Of a stretch of DNA of 64,000 bases, positions 16,981 through 22,554 are shown piece by piece. Position 1 is the stretch's first letter, and each line of letters starts with the position of its first letter. This DNA comes from Nitrosopumilus sp. (GTDB taxonomy: Archaea; Thermoproteota; Nitrososphaeria; Nitrososphaerales; Nitrosopumilaceae), in the NCBI GenBank assembly GCA_965207075.1, contig CBDBLO010000002.1:1632001-1696000 (forward strand), read 5' to 3'. The position numbers were made by a program, and so were the translations under genes. The notes under the pieces were generated by a model. It was not told where the DNA came from and did no database searches. It was given only the letters and a program-made list of their open reading frames with translations.

Positions 16981-17913
16981 TTGGTAATGGAGATAGCAGG
17001 CTCGATCAATGCAAAGGAGAGGTGCCCGAGGTGCGCCCGCGACACCATGATCACGGACGGAAGCACGGGCGAGAACTTTTGCGGCAGCTGCGGCTACGTG
17101 GTGTCCGAGAAGGCAGAGGAGTCGGGCCCCGAGTGGCGCTCGTTCTCAAACGAGGGGGAGAACAAGAGCAGGGCCGGCGTGCCCACGTCCCTTGCCATGC
17201 ACGACATGGGGCTTGCAACCATCATCAACCCCCAGAACAGGGACGCCACAGGCAAGCCGCTGGCCGCGTCCATGAAGAGCACCATCGAGAGGCTGCGCAC
17301 GTGGGACAACAGGAGCCAGGTGCACGAGCCGGTCGACCGCAACTTCAGGCAGGCGTTCAGCGAGCTTGACAGGCTAAAGGACAAGCTCGGGGTCGGGGAG
17401 GCCGTCATCGAGAAGGCGGCCCACATATACAGAAAGGCCCTCGAGAAGGGGCTCGTCAGGGGGAGGTCTATATCGGCCCTCATAGCGTCCGCGCTGTACG
17501 CGGCGTGCCGCGTCACGGAGACGCCCCGCACGCTCAAGGACATAGGCCAGGCAAGCAACATAAAGCGCAAGGACATCGCAAGGTGCTACAGGCTGCTCCT
17601 CAGGGAGCTTGACATTACGATGCCCGTAGTCGATCCCATAAAGTGCATCTCAAGGATCGCAAGCAAGGCGGAGCTCTCCGAGCGCACAAAGCGCCACGCA
17701 ACGAAGATACTAAAGCTCGCCGAGCAGCACAAGATATCGGCCGGAAAGGACCCGATGGGGCTGGCTGCCGCCGCGCTGTACGTGGCGTGCACCGAGTGCG
17801 GCGAGAACAAGACCCAGAGGGACGTGGCCGAGGCCGCCGGCGTGACGGAGGTTACCATACGCAACAGGTACAAGGGGCTCAAGACGGCGCTAGACGGGAT
17901 GGTCTCGGCGTAG
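16981..17913 (+). CDS. tfb: transcription initiation factor IIB (TFB)
   Basis: CPRC..CGSCG zinc ribbon, GPEWRSF, two cyclin repeats, GVTEVTIRNRY. Confidence 0.98.
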   Translation: MVMEIAGSINAKERCPRCARDTMITDGSTGENFCGSCGYVVSEKAEESGPEWRSFSNEGENKSRAGVPTSLAMHDMGLATIINPQNRDATGKPLAASMKSTIERLRTWDNRSQVHEPVDRNFRQAFSELDRLKDKLGVGEAVIEKAAHIYRKALEKGLVRGRSISALIASALYAACRVTETPRTLKDIGQASNIKRKDIARCYRLLLRELDITMPVVDPIKCISRIASKAELSERTKRHATKILKLAEQHKISAGKDPMGLAAAALYVACTECGENKTQRDVAEAAGVTEVTIRNRYKGLKTALDGMVSA

Positions 17914-19044
17914 GGAACCGGCAGTTCTTGACGAAATTATTATCGCGATTACCGACAGGATCCCGCATACGGCCAGTATCACCTCCACTGAGAGCATCAT
18001 GGTGTGGGAGAACGCCTCCTCCAGCGGGACGAGGTGCGTCTGCGATATGAAGTGGGCGTGCGAGAATATGAAGTAGTTGGTGGCCCAGTGGACCAGGACC
18101 GACGCGACAAACCCGTACCTGACGTACACCCACCCCAGGATGATTCCGCCGGCGGCCGCCTGCGCAAACTTGCCCTCGCTCCACGGCTCGCCCAGCGCTA
18201 TGTGCGCAAAGCCGAACAGGAGCCCTACTGCCACGATCACCGCGAGCGCCCTCCTGTGATCGTCGATGCCGACCGCGTCGGGGCGCCACAGGCAGCGCGC
18301 CACGTACCGGAACGAGAAGCGCCCAGAATACATCAGGAAGACGGGTATCCCGACAAGCACGAGCCTAAAGCCGGTCTCCTCCACGATTGGCGCAAGCGAC
18401 ACGTAAAAGAACTCCACAAGGTCGTTTTCGGACTCGGGCGGGGCGGTCTCTATGCCTACATATCCCTGCGCGGCCGTTATTACGATTGACGCAAGCACCA
18501 GTATGGAGAACCACGTTATGACACCCAGCATGGAGTTGTCAAACCGGTGCGCCGTGCGCCGGCCCGCTATGACGTCAGATATGGCGCCCATAAACCCGCG
18601 GGCGGGGCCCATGCATGCGGTTGCAAACGCAACCAGGTACCCAAGCCACAGTATCACGAACGCGTCGCCGACTGACACCGGCGTGGGGGCAAGGTGCAGC
18701 CCCGTGCCCTCAAACAGGCTCAGGTGCGTCAGCGGCAGGTCGTAGTTGATGTCCCCCCCTATGCCGCTTGCAAAGACCACGAACGCCCCCATCGGGAAGG
18801 ATGCCAGAAACAGTCCGAACGTCACCGATATGAGGGCGGCGTGGGGGACTCCGAGCAGCTGCCGCGCAAGGGACTGCCTTGCCAGGGCGGCAGGCGCGGG
18901 GCTGCTGCCGCTGCTGCTGCCGGCAGCAGCGCCACTGTCGTCATCGGCGCGGCGGCCCGCGTCGTTGCAGTCGCCCCGGTCCTGTCCGCCCCGCGCGCCG
19001 CCGACGTCATCATCGTCAATGCTGCCGCTGCTGTCCGGGGGCAT
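17890..19044 (-). CDS. CPBP (CAAX-type) intramembrane metalloprotease
   Basis: APIVEETGFR, LFGFAH, VLVHWATN motifs; multiple TM segments. Confidence 0.88.
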   Translation of the reverse strand: MPPDSSGSIDDDDVGGARGGQDRGDCNDAGRRADDDSGAAAGSSSGSSPAPAALARQSLARQLLGVPHAALISVTFGLFLASFPMGAFVVFASGIGGDINYDLPLTHLSLFEGTGLHLAPTPVSVGDAFVILWLGYLVAFATACMGPARGFMGAISDVIAGRRTAHRFDNSMLGVITWFSILVLASIVITAAQGYVGIETAPPESENDLVEFFYVSLAPIVEETGFRLVLVGIPVFLMYSGRFSFRYVARCLWRPDAVGIDDHRRALAVIVAVGLLFGFAHIALGEPWSEGKFAQAAAGGIILGWVYVRYGFVASVLVHWATNYFIFSHAHFISQTHLVPLEEAFSHTMMLSVEVILAVCGILSVIAIIISSRTAGSLRRDHPV

Positions 19045-19045
19045 C

Positions 19046-19354
19046 TCAATGCAGCTCTATGCTCTCCTCGGCAAAGCCGAGCGAGACCAGCGTGTCCTTT
19101 ATCGTGTCGCGGTGGTCGCCCTGCAGAAAGATGTATCCCTCCTTTGCCGTTCCGCCGCAGGCGTACTTGTTTTTGAGATCCTTCGCGACCGTCTCAAGGC
19201 TGTTGATCTTGGGATCGAGCCCCTCGATCATCGTCCCCTTCTTCTTAAAGCGCCGCGTCTCCAGCCTGATTATAATCTTGGTGCTGTCCTTGGCAAGCTC
19301 CCCACATGCGCATAAGTCATCGGGTAGGCCACACGTATTACAGATTACCGCCAC
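19046..19354 (-). CDS. sui1: translation initiation factor aIF1/SUI1
   Basis: CNTCGLPDDLCAC, LKNKYACGGT, LQGDHR. Confidence 0.96.
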   Translation of the reverse strand: MAVICNTCGLPDDLCACGELAKDSTKIIIRLETRRFKKKGTMIEGLDPKINSLETVAKDLKNKYACGGTAKEGYIFLQGDHRDTIKDTLVSLGFAEESIELH

Positions 19355-19380
19355 GTTCGTTACCGATTGGCATCACATGC

Positions 19381-19394
19381 TATTAAGGTTTGAG
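19381..19394 (-). promoter_or_regulatory. BRE-TATA of the aIF1/SUI1 gene
   Basis: Minus-strand CTCAAA-CCTTAATA about 27 nt upstream of the GTG start. Confidence 0.65.
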
Positions 19395-19409
19395 GAGATC
19401 TTGACTCGT
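19395..19409 (+). repeat. 15-bp direct repeat GAGATCTTGACTCGT, copy 1 (target-site duplication)
   Basis: Identical copies at 20747-20761 and 21800-21814. Confidence 0.95.
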
Positions 19410-20746
19410 TGAAGAGTCGGGGAATCATGTCACCCCGACGCATAAGAGAGCCGACATGGAGGGAGGCGTAATGACACCTCAAACCAAGTATGACGAACAT
19501 GTCCTCATACAGGAACAAAGGGAGGAGACCGAGCGCATACTCAAGACCGCCAGCGAGAAGGGCAGGAAGCCCATACGCAAGCTGGACACGCTTGACGCAA
19601 GGTTCATCGTCCGCGAAAAGAGGAGGGGGACAAGCAACAAGACGATTGCAGGCATCCTGAAGGTCTGCATAAGGCAGGTGCAGCGCATCTGGAGCCGGTT
19701 CAGGCGCCTCGACACGGGGCGGATACTGTACCTTCCAAGGCGCCCCGGCAGGCACCGGAAGGGCGAGCCGGGGCGCAGGGAGCACTCCGCGGTTTTGGCC
19801 GCGTTCGGCCGGGTCGTAAACGGCGCGTCTGCCACATACTGGCACATCAGGAACGCGGGGGACCACGTCCCAAAGGACGCCGTGCACCGGGTGCTGCTTG
19901 AGAACGGGCTGGCGCGCGAGGAGCACGCCAAGAAGAGGCAGCGCAGGTACGTGAGGTACGAGCGGAGGCACAGCAACACGCTCTGGCACACGGACTATAC
20001 GCAGCTGGAGGACGGGAGGTGGCTGATCGTATACGTGGACGACTCGTCCCGGTACATCGTCGGACACGGCGTGTTTGACCGCGCCACGTCCGAGAACGCC
20101 ACCGCGGTCTTCAAGCAGGCCTGCCTGGCGCACGGGACGCCGTACTCGGTCCTGACCGACCACGGATCCCAGTTCTACGCCATGGAGTCCGAGGCAAAGC
20201 GCGAAAGGGGGCGCACGCACTTTGAGGAGCACCTCGGGGACGCCGGCGTAAAGCAGATCCTGGCGCGCGTGGGGCATCCCCAGACCAATGGCAAGGCGGA
20301 GCGCGTGTTCAAGGAGTACAAGTACAAGGTGGGGCACTTTGCCGACGTTGCGGGACCGCCGGGCACGGCGGCCCCGTTTGGCGCCCCCGCCGCAATGGAG
20401 AGCGACCCGACTGCCAGGTTCGTCAGGAACCACAACAACAAGCCGCACGGCAGCCTGTACGGGCAGACGCCCGCGGACGCATACCGCGAGCGGAGGCTCC
20501 CAGAGGGCCGGTCATACAAGGATGACGACGGGTAAGACACCTCAGTCAACCCCGCCGTAGGACCCTCCAGCGTATGCTGCGCACGATCATGTAAAAGCGT
20601 ACCTTTCGCGGCAGTTCGCGCACGTCGGGCACGCTGCCGGCCGCTTGGGCTGGCCCAGCGGAACCGGGAATTCAAAATTCATATGGAGTCCAGGCATGCG
20701 TGGAGCAATGTCACGACACACCGTGACATCATTTTCCGACTCTACA
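19410..20746 (+). mobile_element. IS481-family insertion sequence A (1337 bp)
   Basis: TIRs TGAAGAGTCGGGGAATCATGTCAC / GTGACATCATTTTCCGACTCTACA; flanked by 15-bp DR. Confidence 0.93.
19456..20535 (+). CDS. IS481-family DDE transposase A
   Basis: HTH, RYER.HSN.LWHTD, DDSSR, TDHGSQF, HPQTNGKAER; start may be ATG 19471 after GGAGG. Confidence 0.95.
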   Translation: MEGGVMTPQTKYDEHVLIQEQREETERILKTASEKGRKPIRKLDTLDARFIVREKRRGTSNKTIAGILKVCIRQVQRIWSRFRRLDTGRILYLPRRPGRHRKGEPGRREHSAVLAAFGRVVNGASATYWHIRNAGDHVPKDAVHRVLLENGLAREEHAKKRQRRYVRYERRHSNTLWHTDYTQLEDGRWLIVYVDDSSRYIVGHGVFDRATSENATAVFKQACLAHGTPYSVLTDHGSQFYAMESEAKRERGRTHFEEHLGDAGVKQILARVGHPQTNGKAERVFKEYKYKVGHFADVAGPPGTAAPFGAPAAMESDPTARFVRNHNNKPHGSLYGQTPADAYRERRLPEGRSYKDDDG

Positions 20747-20761
20747 GAGATCTTGACTCGT
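20747..20761 (+). repeat. 15-bp direct repeat, copy 2 (between the two IS elements)
   Basis: GAGATCTTGACTCGT. Confidence 0.95.
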
Positions 20762-21799
20762 TCTATTATACGGAAAGTAGGTCACCGCAGGATCAGGCGG
20801 ACTGTAGCCGATTATTTTAGGCTGTACCGATCACGAAAGCCAGTGTCAAAGGGACTGACAGAAAAGGCCGGGAAGCACCTGGTCAGGAGGCTCGGGAAGG
20901 GGGTGCCGGCTCCCGAAGTGGCAAGGGACCTTGGAATCTCCATCCGGCATGTACGAAGGCTGTGGGCAAGGTTCCAGAAGACCGGGACCATACGCGTGCA
21001 GATGGGCAGGCCGCGCTCCTGCATCACGGGGGCCCAGATACGGCTGATAACCGACGCCCACCAAAGGCGGCCGGTCGGAGTCGTACGCACCGCAAGGGAG
21101 CTGAGAAGGAATCACGATATTAGTTACGCCGCCGTGTACCGCGTGTTGAAGAAGAGCGGCGCCGTGGAGGCCTCGGCGGCAAGATCAAAGAGGCGCAAGT
21201 GGGTGCGGTACGAACGCACGTACTCCAACGCCATGTGGCATACGGACTGGCATGTCATGAAGGATCCCCGCTTTTCAGGCATGAATCTCATCACATATTT
21301 GGACGATGCGTCCCGGTGCGTTACGGGCGCGGCGCTCTTCGAGCACGCCACGTCCGAGAACGCGGTAATGCTCCTCAGGCTCGCAATCAAGAGGTTCGGC
21401 TCCCCCGCGTCCATACTGTCCGACAACGGATCGTGCTTTGTGGGGCAGAACGGCCGCAAGAAGGGAAAGGGGAAGTGGCAGCCCACCGTCTTTGAGGAGG
21501 AGCTGCTTGAGAGGGACATTGCCCTGATAAACGCCCGTCCCTACCACCCCCAGACTAACGGCAAGTTGGAGAGATTCCACCGCAGCCTGGAGGAGGAGAT
21601 ATACCACTATGGCAGCCTCAGGGAGTACGTAGACTATTACAACGAGTCAAGGCTGCACTTCTCGTTGGACATCGACAACTACGAGACGCCGCAGATGGCC
21701 TTCAGGAACAAGAGGGCGACCGAGGCGATCAGGAAGAACGACCCGAAATGGATGGAGAAGGATGCACATGAGTAGCGGACCGACTTTTCATATAATACA
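20762..21799 (+). mobile_element. IS481-family insertion sequence B (1038 bp)
   Basis: TIRs TCTATTATACGGAAAGTAGGTC / GACCGACTTTTCATATAATACA; flanked by the same 15-bp DR. Confidence 0.93.
20843..21775 (+). CDS. IS481-family DDE transposase B
   Basis: WVRYER.YSNAMWHTDW, DDASR, SDNGSCF, HPQTNGKLERFH; start set at GTG inside the element. Confidence 0.95.
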   Translation: MSKGLTEKAGKHLVRRLGKGVPAPEVARDLGISIRHVRRLWARFQKTGTIRVQMGRPRSCITGAQIRLITDAHQRRPVGVVRTARELRRNHDISYAAVYRVLKKSGAVEASAARSKRRKWVRYERTYSNAMWHTDWHVMKDPRFSGMNLITYLDDASRCVTGAALFEHATSENAVMLLRLAIKRFGSPASILSDNGSCFVGQNGRKKGKGKWQPTVFEEELLERDIALINARPYHPQTNGKLERFHRSLEEEIYHYGSLREYVDYYNESRLHFSLDIDNYETPQMAFRNKRATEAIRKNDPKWMEKDAHE

Positions 21800-21814
21800 G
21801 AGATCTTGACTCGT
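21800..21814 (+). repeat. 15-bp direct repeat, copy 3
   Basis: GAGATCTTGACTCGT. Confidence 0.95.
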
Positions 21815-22077
21815 GCGGGTTTGCCTGTCCATAAAAATATCAGAAATTACGCACAAATTTTGACGCCTCGATCAGGTTCAGGCAGGGGTGCCGAATCCAC
21901 ACCGCGATTCTCTGAAAACTGTTTGTAGCCGGCCGCATGCGCGGATTAGTGAAACCCGGTGCGGCCATCGGCAAGAGGCGGCGCAGAGAGGACGGGCGCA
22001 CGGGTCCCGCGGCGAGCGGCATCGGCTCGGAAGGGTGGACGGCGCAGTTTTTTAGCGCCCGTGTCATACGGGGCGCG

Positions 22078-22554
22078 TTGGCGCACAAGGACGGCGGCGG
22101 AGAGAAAGAGAGGGAGCGCGTCAGGCGCGCCGCGGAGATGCTGCTTGCCGGGGCCACCCTGCTGGGGCACCCATGCCCCTACTGCGGGGGCGTCAGGGTG
22201 ATCAAGGATGGCGACGCGCTGTGCGTCAGCTGCGGACAAGAACCGGAGAGACGGGACGTGCCGATAACGGCCCCCCAGGACGGCGGCAGCGACGCAGAAG
22301 ATCATGCGGGCGCAGAGAGGACGGGCGCACGCGCGCAACTGCGGGGGCGGCGGCGGCAGCAGCAGCAACGGCGCAACCTGATCGACGTTCTGGAGAAAAA
22401 GCTCGAGTCGCTTGCCGGCGAGCTTGAGTCGGAGACGGACAGGAAAAGGGAGATTGCCATACTGGATTCAATCGAGGGCGTACTCTCAGCCCTAGAAAAG
22501 GCCAGGGGCGTCACAGACGGCGGCAGTGGCGGCAACGGTGCGGGAACCGCATGA
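22078..22554 (+). CDS. UPF0148 / autoantigen p27-like zinc-ribbon protein
   Basis: AAEMLLAGATLLGHPCPYCGG...CVSCG; start uncertain (TTG after TTTTTTAG). Confidence 0.8.
   Translation: MAHKDGGGEKERERVRRAAEMLLAGATLLGHPCPYCGGVRVIKDGDALCVSCGQEPERRDVPITAPQDGGSDAEDHAGAERTGARAQLRGRRRQQQQRRNLIDVLEKKLESLAGELESETDRKREIAILDSIEGVLSALEKARGVTDGGSGGNGAGTA

What the first reader, a model, noticed from the sequence alone, without database searches (positions are those of the whole stretch)
19354..19409. The IS target directly abuts the BRE-TATA of aIF1: possible TBP/TFB-guided safe-harbour transposition
Seen: on the minus strand the order is 15-bp target, CTCAAA, CCTTAATA, 26 nt, then the GTG of SUI1. The insertions therefore leave the promoter intact and point away from the gene. 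Established: IS481 transposases share the retroviral-integrase fold and TG..CA ends, and yeast Ty3 integrase is positioned by TBP/Brf1 (TFIIIB). Inference: an archaeal analogue positioned by promoter-bound TBP-TFB would explain identical site choice by two divergent transposases without a palindromic target. I know of no description of this.
Basis: inference. Interest (0 to 1): 0.78.

Follow-up and report, generated by a model that had tools for sequence, protein, structure and literature searches.

The report
Archaeal jumping genes land beside promoters
Two different insertion sequences sit stacked exactly at the upstream edge of the promoter of a translation-factor gene, and over a hundred related insertions in other archaea keep the same one-base register, so these mobile elements seem to home in on promoters, which leaves the genes intact.

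Summary
Three exact copies of GAGATCTTGACTCGT (19395-19409, 20747-20761, 21800-21814) bracket two IS481-like elements whose transposases are 34% identical. The first copy abuts CTCAAAC + CTTAATAG + 25 nt + GTG of aIF1/SUI1.

It is not a local oddity. An automatic finder using only inverted and direct repeats gave 114 distinct insertions with 15-16-bp duplications, from about 34 archaeal genomes. A BRE+TATA-like pattern (C-R-A-A-A-n-n-y-T-T-A-W-A-W-A) starts at the first base outside the duplication in 71 of 114, and within ±2 in 89 of 114. It lies on one side only, with no information inside the duplication. An ATG opening a long ORF peaks 36-40 nt further out, which is leaderless geometry.

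Triple-duplication stacks like the window's recur in two other genomes. A related population carries an IS-free allele of this site. IS5 and ISH3-like elements in the same archaea show their own fixed registers; IS630 does not.

Selection alone cannot explain the register, because the duplicated segment would preserve an overlapped promoter.

Whether bound TFB/TBP or the DNA itself is the cue is untested. I favour the bound factors (about 0.55). No description was found in four literature searches on transposon targeting at archaeal promoters.

The parts
19046..19354 (-). aIF1/SUI1 gene, 102 aa, GTG start; the 11 relatives examined in the same genus have ATG at the aligned codon
   Evidence: Pfam SUI1 E 4e-19. 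N-terminus MAVICNTCGLP conserved in relatives.
19355..19379 (-). 25-nt spacer between the TATA box and the start codon, consistent with a leaderless mRNA
   Evidence: Sequence. Genome-wide profile: T-rich at -30..-27, A-rich at -26..-24 and at -35..-32, with no Shine-Dalgarno signal.
19380..19387 (-). TATA box, CTTAATAG on the minus strand
   Evidence: The same octamer is conserved upstream of sui1 in 11 of 11 relatives' loci examined.
19388..19394 (-). BRE-like 7-mer, CTCAAAC on the minus strand, directly abutting the duplicated target
   Evidence: Fits the C-R-A-A-A-n-n positions of the pooled flank profile.
19395..19409 (.). Target-site duplication copy 1, GAGATCTTGACTCGT, nearest the promoter
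19410..20746 (+). IS-A, 1337 bp. Inverted repeats are TGAAGAGTCGGGGAATCATGTCAC and TGTAGAGTCGGAAAATGATGTCAC. Seven copies in the genome; six have 15-bp duplications, all of different sequence.
19456..20535 (+). IS-A transposase, 359 aa, rve core. D180, D235 and E282 are invariant in a 15-sequence alignment.
   Evidence: Pfam rve E 5e-15. Alignment A1. The best NCBIfam model is IS481, at 161.7 bits against a cutoff of 224.
20747..20761 (.). Target-site duplication copy 2, shared by the two elements
20762..21799 (+). IS-B, 1038 bp. Inverted repeats are TCTATTATACGGAAAGTAGGTC and TGTATTATATGAAAAGTCGGTC. Three close copies plus diverged ones, with 15-16-bp duplications.
20843..21775 (+). IS-B transposase, 310 aa from a GTG; the start is inferred. 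HTH_28 plus rve. 34% identical to the IS-A transposase.
21800..21814 (.). Target-site duplication copy 3, farthest from the promoter
21831..21838 (+). Second TATA-like octamer, ATAAAAAT, 16 nt beyond copy 3. It may be the promoter of the divergent Auto_anti-p27-family gene (ORF 21937-22554; start uncertain).
   Evidence: Pfam PF06677. Relatives have a divergent gene at this position. Function is inferred.

Best explanation
The window shows two successive insertions that were each aimed at the same promoter.

Shown: a clade of archaeal IS481-like elements makes 15-16-bp target duplications. These elements integrate so that the cut nearer the promoter falls exactly at the 5' edge of the BRE of a BRE/TATA promoter. 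That is about position -38/-39 relative to the start codon of a leaderless gene. The other cut lies 15-16 bp further upstream. The positional cue lies wholly outside the duplicated segment, on one side only, and the element can sit in either orientation.

Inferred: because the register is measured from the promoter, a second element re-uses the duplication copy next to the promoter and duplicates the same 15-mer again. This gives target / IS-A / target / IS-B / target. On this reading IS-A, which is nearest the promoter, arrived after IS-B. BRE, TATA and the gene stay intact.

Inferred and not tested: the cue is the TFB/TBP complex sitting on BRE/TATA, or the DNA geometry it imposes. It would both block cutting inside the promoter and position the transpososome against its upstream face, as TFIIIB does for Ty3.
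For: (1) Anatomy of the window.

(2) Generality. The finder used only inverted repeats plus a direct repeat and never looked at the flanks.
- First set: 88 of 124 loci gave ends, which reduced to 81 unique events.
- Held-out set: 47 of 80 loci gave ends, of which 33 events were new.

(3) Unbiased profile with both sides pooled, 162 sides. Reading outward from the duplication: C 0.36 at position 1; A 0.41, 0.47, 0.59 at positions 3-5; T 0.48, 0.52 at positions 9-10; A 0.48 at 11 and 0.51 at 13. A+T is 0.72 at positions 9-13, against about 0.46 further out.

(4) Held-out test of the pattern: at least 10 of 13 matches in 15 of 33 events, against 2.5% of 198 shifted control windows.

(5) Full scan from -16 to +60 on 228 sides. 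Windows scoring at least 10 number 47 at offset 0 and at most 8 at any other offset. The single best window per event is at offset 0 in 71 of 114, within ±2 in 89, inside the duplication in 5, and further out in 20.

(6) A test that does not depend on the motif: an ATG opening at least 80 codons and reading outward peaks 36-40 nt from the duplication edge. It falls in the 33-42 bin for 41 of 81 events; other 10-nt bins hold 2-11 events. The host genome-wide profile places TATA and BRE at matching distances from ATG.

(7) One-sidedness. The weaker side scores like the null: 18 of 114 reach 8 or more, against 12.9% expected. There is no information inside the duplication or on the far flank.

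(8) Stacks with three duplication copies also occur in G052 (L082) and in G135 (L077, a MITE plus an IS).

(9) A contig from a related population (run X9, depth 308) joins window 19396 to 21811 without either element.

(10) Argument against selection alone. The duplication keeps whatever it covers next to the gene, so insertions overlapping BRE/TATA would do no harm. Yet they are nearly absent.

(11) Unrelated transposase families in the same archaea keep their own fixed registers.
- IS5 with 8-bp duplications: offset -1 in 7 of the 13 events scoring at least 9, out of 16 events.
- ISH3-like with 5-bp duplications: 7-8 nt from the IS end in 10 of the 16 events scoring at least 9, out of 20 events.
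- IS630 (4 copies) and a TA-duplicating IS5-like element (3 copies) show no such register.
The cuts nearer the promoter line up at the BRE edge across families; the cuts farther away do not.
Against: - No evidence of any transposase-TFB/TBP contact was obtained.
- The transposases show only HTH domains plus the rve core, with no obvious extra tethering domain.
- Sequence or shape readout of BRE/TATA by a transposase DNA-binding domain would produce the same statistics.
- The conserved inverted-repeat core (C-n-R-A-A-A-K-T-A) shares a C-R-A-A-A run with the BRE-like flank.
- 25 of 114 events have their best promoter-like window away from the duplication edge. Examples are copies A1 and A3 in the window's own genome, which lie after gene ends.
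- Transcription starts are inferred, not mapped.
- The pattern was first derived from set 1. This circularity is removed only by the held-out set, by the pooled profile, and by the ATG test.
- Related genomes are not independent samples.
- The counts for IS5 and ISH3 are small, and some of their ends were set by eye.
- That IS-A arrived after IS-B is inference only.
Confidence: 0.55

Rival explanations
1. Direct DNA readout. A DNA-binding domain of the transposase, or of a non-catalytic subunit in the transpososome, recognises the BRE/TATA sequence or its shape (an A-tract plus a deformable TATA) on naked DNA. It places the active sites 0 and 15-16 bp upstream. No host protein is needed.
For: The cue is a well-defined DNA motif with strong positions: A 0.84 at +4, T 0.85 at +9, A 0.85 at +12 in oriented sites (though those sites were selected by score). 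The transposases carry two HTH-like regions and no extra domain. The conserved inverted-repeat core contains C-n-R-A-A-A, which resembles the BRE-like flank. This is the simplest mechanism. ISH6 elements are reported to prefer an AT-rich motif (PMC3942029, passages read).
Against: - Apart from the A-run, the inverted repeats do not match the target pattern. The best pattern scores over 60 windows per end are mostly 7-9.
- At least three unrelated transposase families (IS481-like, IS5, ISH3-like) would each have had to evolve readout of the same promoter motif.
- A two-fold symmetric transpososome that reads target DNA usually leaves symmetric preferences centred on the duplication. Here there is none.
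- The targeted promoters belong to genes such as thermosome and aIF1. If those promoters are occupied by TFB/TBP much of the time, which is an inference, the transposase would have to compete with them.
Confidence: 0.3
2. Another host cue at promoters, rather than TFB/TBP contact. Candidates are a chromatin-free gap just upstream of promoters, negative supercoiling behind initiating RNA polymerase, or another promoter-bound protein. Several transposase families would then insert in the only accessible DNA.
For: Several families behave similarly. The information is one-sided and external to the duplication.
Against: A register held to a single base (71 of 114 at one offset), with family-specific offsets of -1, 0 and +2, is sharper than an accessibility boundary or a supercoiling domain would be expected to give (inference). 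IS630 and the TA-type IS5-like copies in the same genome do not follow it.
Confidence: 0.08
3. Survivorship only. Insertion is random, and only copies that spare genes and promoters persist in a compact genome, so survivors pile up against promoters.
For: The genomes are compact, and all the insertions counted are old enough to have been assembled. Several IS families sit near promoters, as selection acting on all families would predict.
Against: - A 15-bp duplication keeps an overlapped BRE/TATA contiguous with the gene, so overlapping positions would be tolerated. Only 5 of 114 best windows start inside the duplication, against 71 at offset 0.
- Under uniform insertion into non-coding-like DNA of the window's genome, a score of at least 9 is expected in 5% of positions. 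It is observed in 9 of 12 events.
- Across families it is the cuts nearer the promoter that line up at the BRE edge, not the far edges, which are the ones that matter for promoter integrity.
- IS630 and TA-type IS5-like copies survive elsewhere.
Confidence: 0.04
4. The 15-mer itself is a sequence-specific attachment site recognised by both transposases, or the triple repeat arose by recombination or as an assembly artefact.
For: There are three identical copies at this one locus. The 15-mer contains an AGATCT palindrome.
Against: - The other copies of IS-A, IS-B and IS-C have unrelated duplications.
- There is no information inside the duplication across 73 oriented events.
- The 15-mer occurs nowhere else in the genome.
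- Contigs from independent runs cover the IS junctions, and an IS-free allele exists.
Confidence: 0.02

Closest known systems
IS481 family, archaeal members with 15-bp target duplications (ISMac4, ISA0963-1)
   Same: Single rve-type DDE transposase. Ends begin TGT/TCT and finish ACA. Size 1.0-1.4 kb. Duplications of 15-16 bp. PMC10045372 (passages read) states that the family makes 2-15-bp duplications and that these two archaeal members make 15 bp.
   Different: The passages read mention no promoter or TATA targeting. The transposases here score below NCBI's curated IS481 cutoff (162-178 bits against 224), so they form a diverged branch.
TnGBS, ISLre2 and ISKra4 elements (Mutator-like DDE transposases of bacteria)
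   Same: Insertion at a fixed distance upstream of a core promoter element, 15-17 bp upstream of the -35 box of sigma-A promoters. This spares the genes. The authors proposed contact with the RNA polymerase initiation complex (PMC3942029, passages read). Families with near-perfect inverted repeats insert in both orientations, as seen here.
   Different: A different transposase superfamily (Mutator/IS256-like rather than rve/IS481). Bacterial sigma-A promoters rather than archaeal BRE/TATA. Most of those elements insert in one orientation. Here the duplication abuts the promoter element directly.
Ty3 retrotransposon integrase tethered to TFIIIB (TBP/Brf1/Bdp1)
   Same: An rve-fold enzyme is positioned with near single-base precision by a TBP-containing factor bound to a TATA-type element, which gives harmless integration (10.1101/2021.07.27.453949, abstract read). 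TFB is the archaeal homologue of TFIIB/Brf1 (recalled).
   Different: Ty3 integrates at the transcription start, on the downstream side, and uses a chromodomain to touch TBP. Here the insertion is on the upstream BRE side, no chromodomain-like extra domain was seen, and no contact has been shown.
ISAba32 subgroup of the IS1202 family
   Same: Relatives of IS481 that insert at a fixed distance, 5 bp, from a site bound by host proteins (XerCD recombination sites). The family shows discrete duplication lengths of 5-6, 15-17 and 27-28 bp (10.1101/2022.12.17.520857, abstract read).
   Different: In that study only the subgroup with 5-bp duplications is targeted, and in one orientation. The partner is a recombinase site, not a promoter. 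The hosts are bacteria.
ISH6 group (archaeal Mutator-like IS)
   Same: An archaeal IS with a preference for AT-rich DNA that the authors suggested might favour promoter regions (PMC3942029, passages read).
   Different: There the AT-rich motif (AANATNTT) is itself the duplicated target. Here the duplicated segment carries no information, and the promoter lies outside it in an exact register.

Membership tests
IS481 family of insertion sequences | Single DDE transposase with an integrase-type (rve) catalytic core | tested here: met
   Pfam rve E 4.9e-15 for IS-A and 2.2e-13 for IS-B. D180, D235 and E282 are invariant in 15 aligned transposases.
IS481 family of insertion sequences | IS481 is the best-matching IS family model, over its full length | tested here: met
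   NF033577 is the top hit for 5 of 5 transposases, covering model positions about 2-284.
IS481 family of insertion sequences | Score reaches NCBIfam's curated cutoff for IS481 (224 bits) | tested here: not met
   161.7-178.2 bits for 5 of 5. This is a diverged archaeal branch.
IS481 family of insertion sequences | Terminal inverted repeats beginning TGT and ending ACA | tested here: met
   Across 115 distinct ends: T1 1.00, G2 0.70 (C 0.26), T3 0.92. IS-A has TGA.../...ACA and IS-B has TCT.../...ACA.
IS481 family of insertion sequences | Target duplication within the family's range (2-15 bp; 15 bp in archaeal members) | tested here: met
   15 or 16 bp in nearly all events. The range is taken from PMC10045372 (passages read).
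Promoter-upstream targeting elements of the TnGBS/ISLre2/ISKra4 type | Insertion at a fixed distance upstream of a core promoter element | tested here: met
   Offset 0 from the BRE edge in 71 of 114 events, and within ±2 in 89 of 114.
Promoter-upstream targeting elements of the TnGBS/ISLre2/ISKra4 type | Mutator-like (p-MULT) transposase | tested here: not met
   rve/IS481-type transposase.
Promoter-upstream targeting elements of the TnGBS/ISLre2/ISKra4 type | Conserved orientation relative to the promoter | tested here: not met
   51 versus 35.
Ty3-like tethering to a TBP-containing initiation factor | Integration window set with near single-base precision relative to the factor's binding site | tested here: met
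   The ATG peaks 36-40 nt away.
Ty3-like tethering to a TBP-containing initiation factor | Physical contact between the integrase or transposase and TBP, TFB or Brf1 | not testable with these tools
   This needs pull-down, structure determination or reconstitution. No usable computational answer was obtained.
Ty3-like tethering to a TBP-containing initiation factor | Targeting depends on the factor being bound | not testable with these tools
   This needs integration assays with and without TFB/TBP and with BRE/TATA mutants.

The most novel reading that the evidence does not exclude
Promoter-bound TFB/TBP is a shared landing beacon for transposition in archaea. At least three unrelated transposase families (IS481-like, IS5, ISH3-like) would dock against the upstream face of the BRE/TATA complex, each with its own one-base register. 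That would make archaeal core promoters general safe harbours, and it would be a prokaryotic counterpart of Ty3/TFIIIB targeting that can be reconstituted with two small recombinant factors.
Probability: 0.45. Interest if true: 0.9.

Novelty: new variant of a known kind. Interest (0 to 1): 0.8.

Why it matters
Targeting of transposons to promoters is known for yeast Ty3 (Pol III genes) and for a few bacterial Mutator-like elements. I found no description of it for archaea or for the IS481 family.

If the register is set by TFB/TBP, it is an unusually simple system for studying how a general transcription factor guides an integrase-fold enzyme: one transposase, two small factors and a 40-bp promoter.

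It would also explain how IS elements persist in compact archaeal genomes without killing genes, and why different elements pile up at the same site. It would give a free computational marker of core promoters and leaderless starts in uncultured archaea. It would also suggest a route to site-directed insertion tools for archaea.

Even if the cue proves to be DNA readout, a one-sided target signal lying wholly outside a 15-bp duplication is unusual for a DDE transposase.

Tried and rejected
**Complex prediction.** I submitted the genome's own TBP (residues 10-193), the core of the window's TFB (residues 105-310), and the IS-A transposase as alignment A1. The verdict was 'no answer' (score 0.00). 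It is reported here only and is evidence neither way.

**Closed or unavailable sources.**
- The archaeal IS review that I recalled as PMC1847376 is not held. A statement there about archaeal IS481 targets could bear on novelty.
- Supplementary tables of the papers were not opened. Tables S1/S2 of PMC3942029 and the ISfinder entries for ISMac4 and ISA0963-1 may hold target data that I did not see.

**Mimicry of the inverted repeats as the cue.** Only the C-n-R-A-A-A run resembles the flank motif, and the best pattern scores in the IS ends look like multiple-testing noise. I kept this only as a minor point in favour of the DNA-readout rival.

**Empty site in relatives of the same genus.** The promoter is conserved, but the sequence upstream of it is too diverged (AT-rich genomes) to show the 15-mer. 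The IS-free allele came from run X9 instead.

**Run coverage.** Runs X6 and X7 gave only partial cover of the stretch. Parts without cover are not interpreted.

**In-frame stops in relatives' transposases.** They are scattered in position, so I read them as pseudogenes rather than recoding. My codon extraction for hits with several stops was faulty, so only the count of 14 TAG, 4 TAA and 4 TGA is used.

**A7/B4 pair (C2:798726-801187).** These two elements are 15 bp apart and have no duplications. I did not resolve them; they are probably recombinants.

**Weak controls.**
- The null for uniform insertion uses a crude coding mask covering 70% of the genome, so it is only approximate.
- The pattern score is partly circular because the pattern was derived from the same set. 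I rely.

**Rows dropped.**
- 36 of 124 loci and 33 of 80 loci gave no inverted repeat plus duplication and were not counted.
- Duplicates were removed: 6 and 14.
- The window's two elements are counted as one site.
- In one search, 5 of 21 loci gave no ends.
- In one search, the ISH3-like ends were taken from copy-to-copy BLAST boundaries, and those of G041 are probably 5 nt off.

**Literature searches behind the 'not found in print' statement.** Four searches looked for transposon targeting at archaeal promoters. Three more covered IS481 targets in archaea, thaumarchaeal transcription starts and thaumarchaeal IS elements. In PMC6563490 the words promoter, TATA and IS481 do not occur in the main text.
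Full report
**What is in the window**

Reading the minus strand from 19409 down, the order is:
- ACGAGTCAAGATCTC (the 15-bp target)
- CTCAAAC
- CTTAATAG
- 25 nt of spacer
- the GTG of a 102-aa ORF (19354-19046), which is Pfam SUI1/aIF1 (E 4e-19).

My split follows 11 relatives of the same genus, which all carry ...CAAAC AAGG CTTAATAG, then 28 nt, then ATG GCA GTA ATT TGT....

The 15-mer GAGATCTTGACTCGT occurs three times in the 2.23-Mb genome, all at this locus: 19395, 20747 and 21800.
- Between copies 1 and 2 lies IS-A (1337 bp, ends TGAAGAGTCGG...CCGACTCTACA, a 359-aa rve transposase).
- Between copies 2 and 3 lies IS-B (1038 bp, ends TCTATTATAC...ATATAATACA, an HTH_28 plus rve transposase).

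The two transposases are 34% identical. Their best IS family model is IS481, over its full length but below NCBI's curated cutoff.

**The same elements elsewhere in this genome**

IS-A has 7 copies. IS-B has 3 close copies and 2 diverged ones. A third relative, IS-C (44% identical to the IS-A transposase), has 3 copies. All intact copies have 15-16-bp duplications, and the duplicated sequences are unrelated to each other.

I rebuilt the empty sites. A TATA-like octamer lies 6-8 nt outside the duplication in 8 of 12 events. An ATG or GTG opening a long ORF that points away from the element follows, 36-40 nt from the duplication edge. Those ORFs are real genes: thermosome (Cpn60_TCP1), a MetH-like protein, an amidohydrolase, a solute-binding protein, a DUF7482 protein, and aIF1.

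**Generality**

Relatives of the transposase were found in 31 of 201 sampled genomes of the same family. Record titles name that family as Nitrosopumilaceae. Relatives also occur in Nitrososphaerales, Bathyarchaeia, Thermoplasmata, DHVE2 and Iainarchaeum records.

I fetched loci and ran a finder that uses only three things: terminal inverted-repeat complementarity, a 14-17-bp direct repeat with at most one mismatch, and a T at both tips. It never looks at the flanks.
- First set: 88 of 124 loci gave ends, which reduced to 81 unique events.
- Second set: 47 of 80 loci gave ends, of which 33 were new events.

Together this is 114 events from about 34 genomes or records. That figure is my own hand count from the locus lists.

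**Statistics**

- **Pooled profile.** Both sides of all 81 first-set events were pooled, with no orientation chosen. The composition outward from the duplication edge reads C-R-A-A-A-n-n-y-T-T-A-W-A-W-A. A+T is 0.72 at positions 9-13 and about 0.46 further out. The second set gives the same profile.
- **Held-out test.** The pattern was derived from set 1 and tested on set 2. At least 10 of 13 matches occur in 15 of 33 events, against 2.5% of 198 shifted control windows.
- **Full scan from -16 to +60 on all 228 sides.** There are 47 windows scoring at least 10 at offset 0, at most 8 at any other offset, and at most 2 beyond ±2. The single best window per event is at offset 0 in 71 of 114, within ±2 in 89, inside the duplication in 5, and further out in 20.
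- **A test independent of the motif.** An ATG that opens at least 80 codons reading outward peaks at 36-40 nt. It falls in the 33-42 bin for 41 of 81 events; other 10-nt bins hold 2-11.

The host's own genes have the matching architecture. Aligned on the first ATG, 779 crude ORFs are A-rich at -35..-32, T-rich at -30..-27 and A-rich at -26..-24, with no Shine-Dalgarno peak. This agrees with the report that 11 of 11 Thaumarchaeota fall in the leaderless group, with the promoter box about 26 nt from gene starts (PMC6028130, passages read).

The duplication edge therefore lies at about -38/-39, which is the 5' boundary of a 7-bp BRE followed by an 8-bp TATA box. The archaeal BRE consensus 'cRnaAnt' is recalled from memory and comes from no call.

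**One-sidedness and orientation**

- The weaker side of each site scores like the null.
- Neither the duplication nor the far flank carries information: at most 0.12 bit per position across 73 oriented events.
- The element's orientation relative to the promoter is not fixed: 51 versus 35.

**Stacks**

If the register is measured from the promoter, a second element must land in the duplication copy next to the promoter and duplicate the same bases again. That is exactly what the window shows. The same triple-copy structure occurs elsewhere:
- in G052 (L082, two different IS481-like elements)
- in G135 (L077, a 232-bp MITE-like element plus an IS)
- partial cases in L022 and L188
- two ISH3-like copies sharing CTTGA (L235)
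- two IS5 elements sharing CAATCATT.

The model predicts that IS-A, the element nearest the promoter, arrived after IS-B. This is inference.

**An IS-free allele**

Laying contigs of four public runs on 18900-22300 gave one informative result. In run X9 (labelled sponge metagenome; about 4-8% diverged from the window) a 6273-nt contig of depth 308 joins 19396 to 21811 with 7 letters between. This is the same promoter and right flank with a single, 13-nt version of the target and no IS. Run X2 covers the IS junctions with no differing letters.

**Why selection alone does not explain the register**

A target duplication keeps whatever it covers contiguous with the gene. An insertion whose 15-bp duplication overlapped BRE/TATA would still leave an intact promoter. 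Selection for promoter integrity therefore constrains the far edge of the duplication, not the near edge.

Three observations bear on this:
- The near edge is the one fixed at the BRE boundary, and promoter-like windows starting inside the duplication are rare.
- Under uniform insertion into non-coding-like DNA of this genome, a score of at least 9 is expected in 5% of positions. It is observed in 9 of 12 events. The mask is crude and the pattern partly circular.
- IS630 (4 copies) and a TA-duplicating IS5-like element (3 copies) in the same genome are not at promoter edges.

**Other transposase families**

I set these up as negative controls, but several turned out to behave similarly.
- **IS5 with 8-bp duplications.** 21 loci gave 16 events. 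The pattern scores at least 9 in 13 of them, at offset -1 in 7, at 0 in 1 and at +1 in 2. In the window's own genome it is at -1 in 3 of 3.
- **ISH3-like with 5-6-bp duplications.** There are 20 events and 16 score at least 9. The pattern starts 7-8 nt from the IS end in 10. It starts at 2-3 nt in 4 events of G041, whose ends I probably set 5 nt too far out.
- **An IS5-like element with 9-bp duplications** shows offset -1 in 3 of 3, and **an IS66-like element** shows +6 in 2 of 2. The counts are very small.

Family names come from NCBIfam. Across families, the cuts nearer the promoter cluster within about 2 nt of the BRE edge, although duplication lengths range from 5 to 16 bp.

**Mechanism**

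Shown: integration (or at least fixation) in exact register with BRE/TATA, one-sided, outside the duplication, for transposases as little as 32-50% identical.

Inferred: something occupying BRE/TATA both excludes cutting inside the promoter and positions the transpososome against its upstream face. The obvious candidate is the TFB/TBP complex. The C-terminal cyclin repeat of TFB reads the BRE immediately next to the near cut (recalled knowledge). TBP-containing TFIIIB does the same job for the rve-fold Ty3 integrase (10.1101/2021.07.27.453949, abstract read).

The 15-16-bp stagger equals a 5-bp stagger plus one helical turn. This fits the discrete duplication lengths of about 4, 15 and 25 bp noted for IS481 relatives (PMC10045372, passages read).

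The main rival is direct readout of the BRE/TATA sequence or shape by the transposase. It explains the IS481-like data equally well. It is less economical once three unrelated families are included, and it does not explain the lack of any symmetric signal. I put the bound-factor cue at about 0.55, DNA readout at about 0.30, another host cue at about 0.08, and selection alone or chance at about 0.06.

**Comparison with what is known**

- IS481 elements with 15-bp duplications in archaea are known (PMC10045372).
- Promoter-upstream targeting by DDE transposons is known in bacteria for the Mutator-like TnGBS, ISLre2 and ISKra4 elements. They insert 15-17 bp upstream of the -35 box, and the cue is proposed, but not shown, to be the RNA polymerase initiation complex (PMC3942029, passages read). 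The same paper notes an AT-rich duplicated target for archaeal ISH6.
- The ISAba32 subgroup of the IS1202 family inserts 5 bp from XerCD sites (10.1101/2022.12.17.520857, abstract read).
- A survey of thaumarchaeal mobile elements lists 244 IS of 13 families, and the words promoter, TATA and IS481 do not occur in its main text (PMC6563490, passages read).

Four searches of the held library for transposon targeting at archaeal promoters, and three related ones, found no description of archaeal IS elements registered on BRE/TATA. Subscription journals, ISfinder and supplementary tables were not visible to me.

I file this as a new variant of a known kind: promoter-targeted transposition, here in archaea, on BRE/TATA, by IS481-like elements and apparently by IS5 and ISH3-like elements too.

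**Verdict**

Interest 0.8.

Noticed in passing
window 16981-17913 (+): One of the genome's four TFB (TFIIB-family) genes lies about 1.4 kb from the insertion site, separated from sui1 by an Rce1-like gene (17890-19044, minus strand). The genome also has two TBP genes. This is probably coincidence.
   Followed up: partly
G000:C2 412051, 568475, 1021860, 1060052; loci L234-L252: ISH3-like elements with 5-6-bp duplications also sit at promoter edges. The BRE/TATA-like pattern starts 7-8 nt from the IS end in 10 of the 16 events that score at least 9, out of 20 events.
   Followed up: partly
G000:C2 153953, 422735, 1586438; loci L254-L273: IS5-family elements with 8-bp duplications show the pattern at offset -1 from the duplication edge in 7 of the 13 events that score at least 9, out of 16 events. 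An IS5-like element with 9-bp duplications shows -1 in 3 of 3.
   Followed up: partly
G000:C2 763912, 1495537, 1938710, 2150461 (IS630); 237257, 773582, 1952923 (TA-type IS5-like): These two families, which both duplicate TA, show no fixed promoter register. They are useful negative controls, but the counts are only 4 and 3.
   Followed up: partly
L082 (G052), L077 (G135), L235 (G065), L256 (G000:C2 about 1586438-1589200): Further stacks in which two elements share three copies of one target duplication. One case involves a 232-bp MITE-like element whose ends resemble IS481-type ends.
   Followed up: partly
G000:C2:798726-801187: A degenerate IS-B-like copy and an IS-A copy lie 15 bp apart, and neither has a duplication. 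This is probably the product of recombination between copies.
   Followed up: no
G000:C2:142853-144103: One copy of an IS5-like element sits between a TATA-like box and an ATG 26 nt downstream in the rebuilt empty site. That places it inside a likely promoter-to-start interval rather than upstream of it.
   Followed up: no
window 19352-19354 and loci L192-L202: aIF1 starts with GTG in this genome but with ATG in all 11 relatives examined. The TATA-to-start distance is 25 nt here and 28 nt in the relatives.
   Followed up: partly
IS481-like events, offsets -12 to -9 inside the duplication: There is a small excess of promoter-like windows starting 9-12 nt inside the duplication: 4, 3, 7 and 5 windows scoring at least 9, against a background of about 2. 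This may be a secondary register one helical turn away, or it may be noise.
   Followed up: no
transposase matches in relatives: Among single in-frame stops in broken transposase copies, TAG predominates (14 TAG, 4 TAA, 4 TGA). The positions are scattered, so these look like pseudogenes rather than recoding.
   Followed up: partly
window 20752-20768 and 21635-21651: A 17-nt inverted repeat, 88% complementary, pairs the junction of the target with the IS-B left end to a stretch inside the IS-B transposase gene. Unexplained; it may be chance.
   Followed up: no
G000 contig C1 (45.9 kb) and the first ~87 kb of C2: Much of C1 matches the start of C2 at 90% identity or more. This suggests assembly redundancy or a large duplication.
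   Followed up: no
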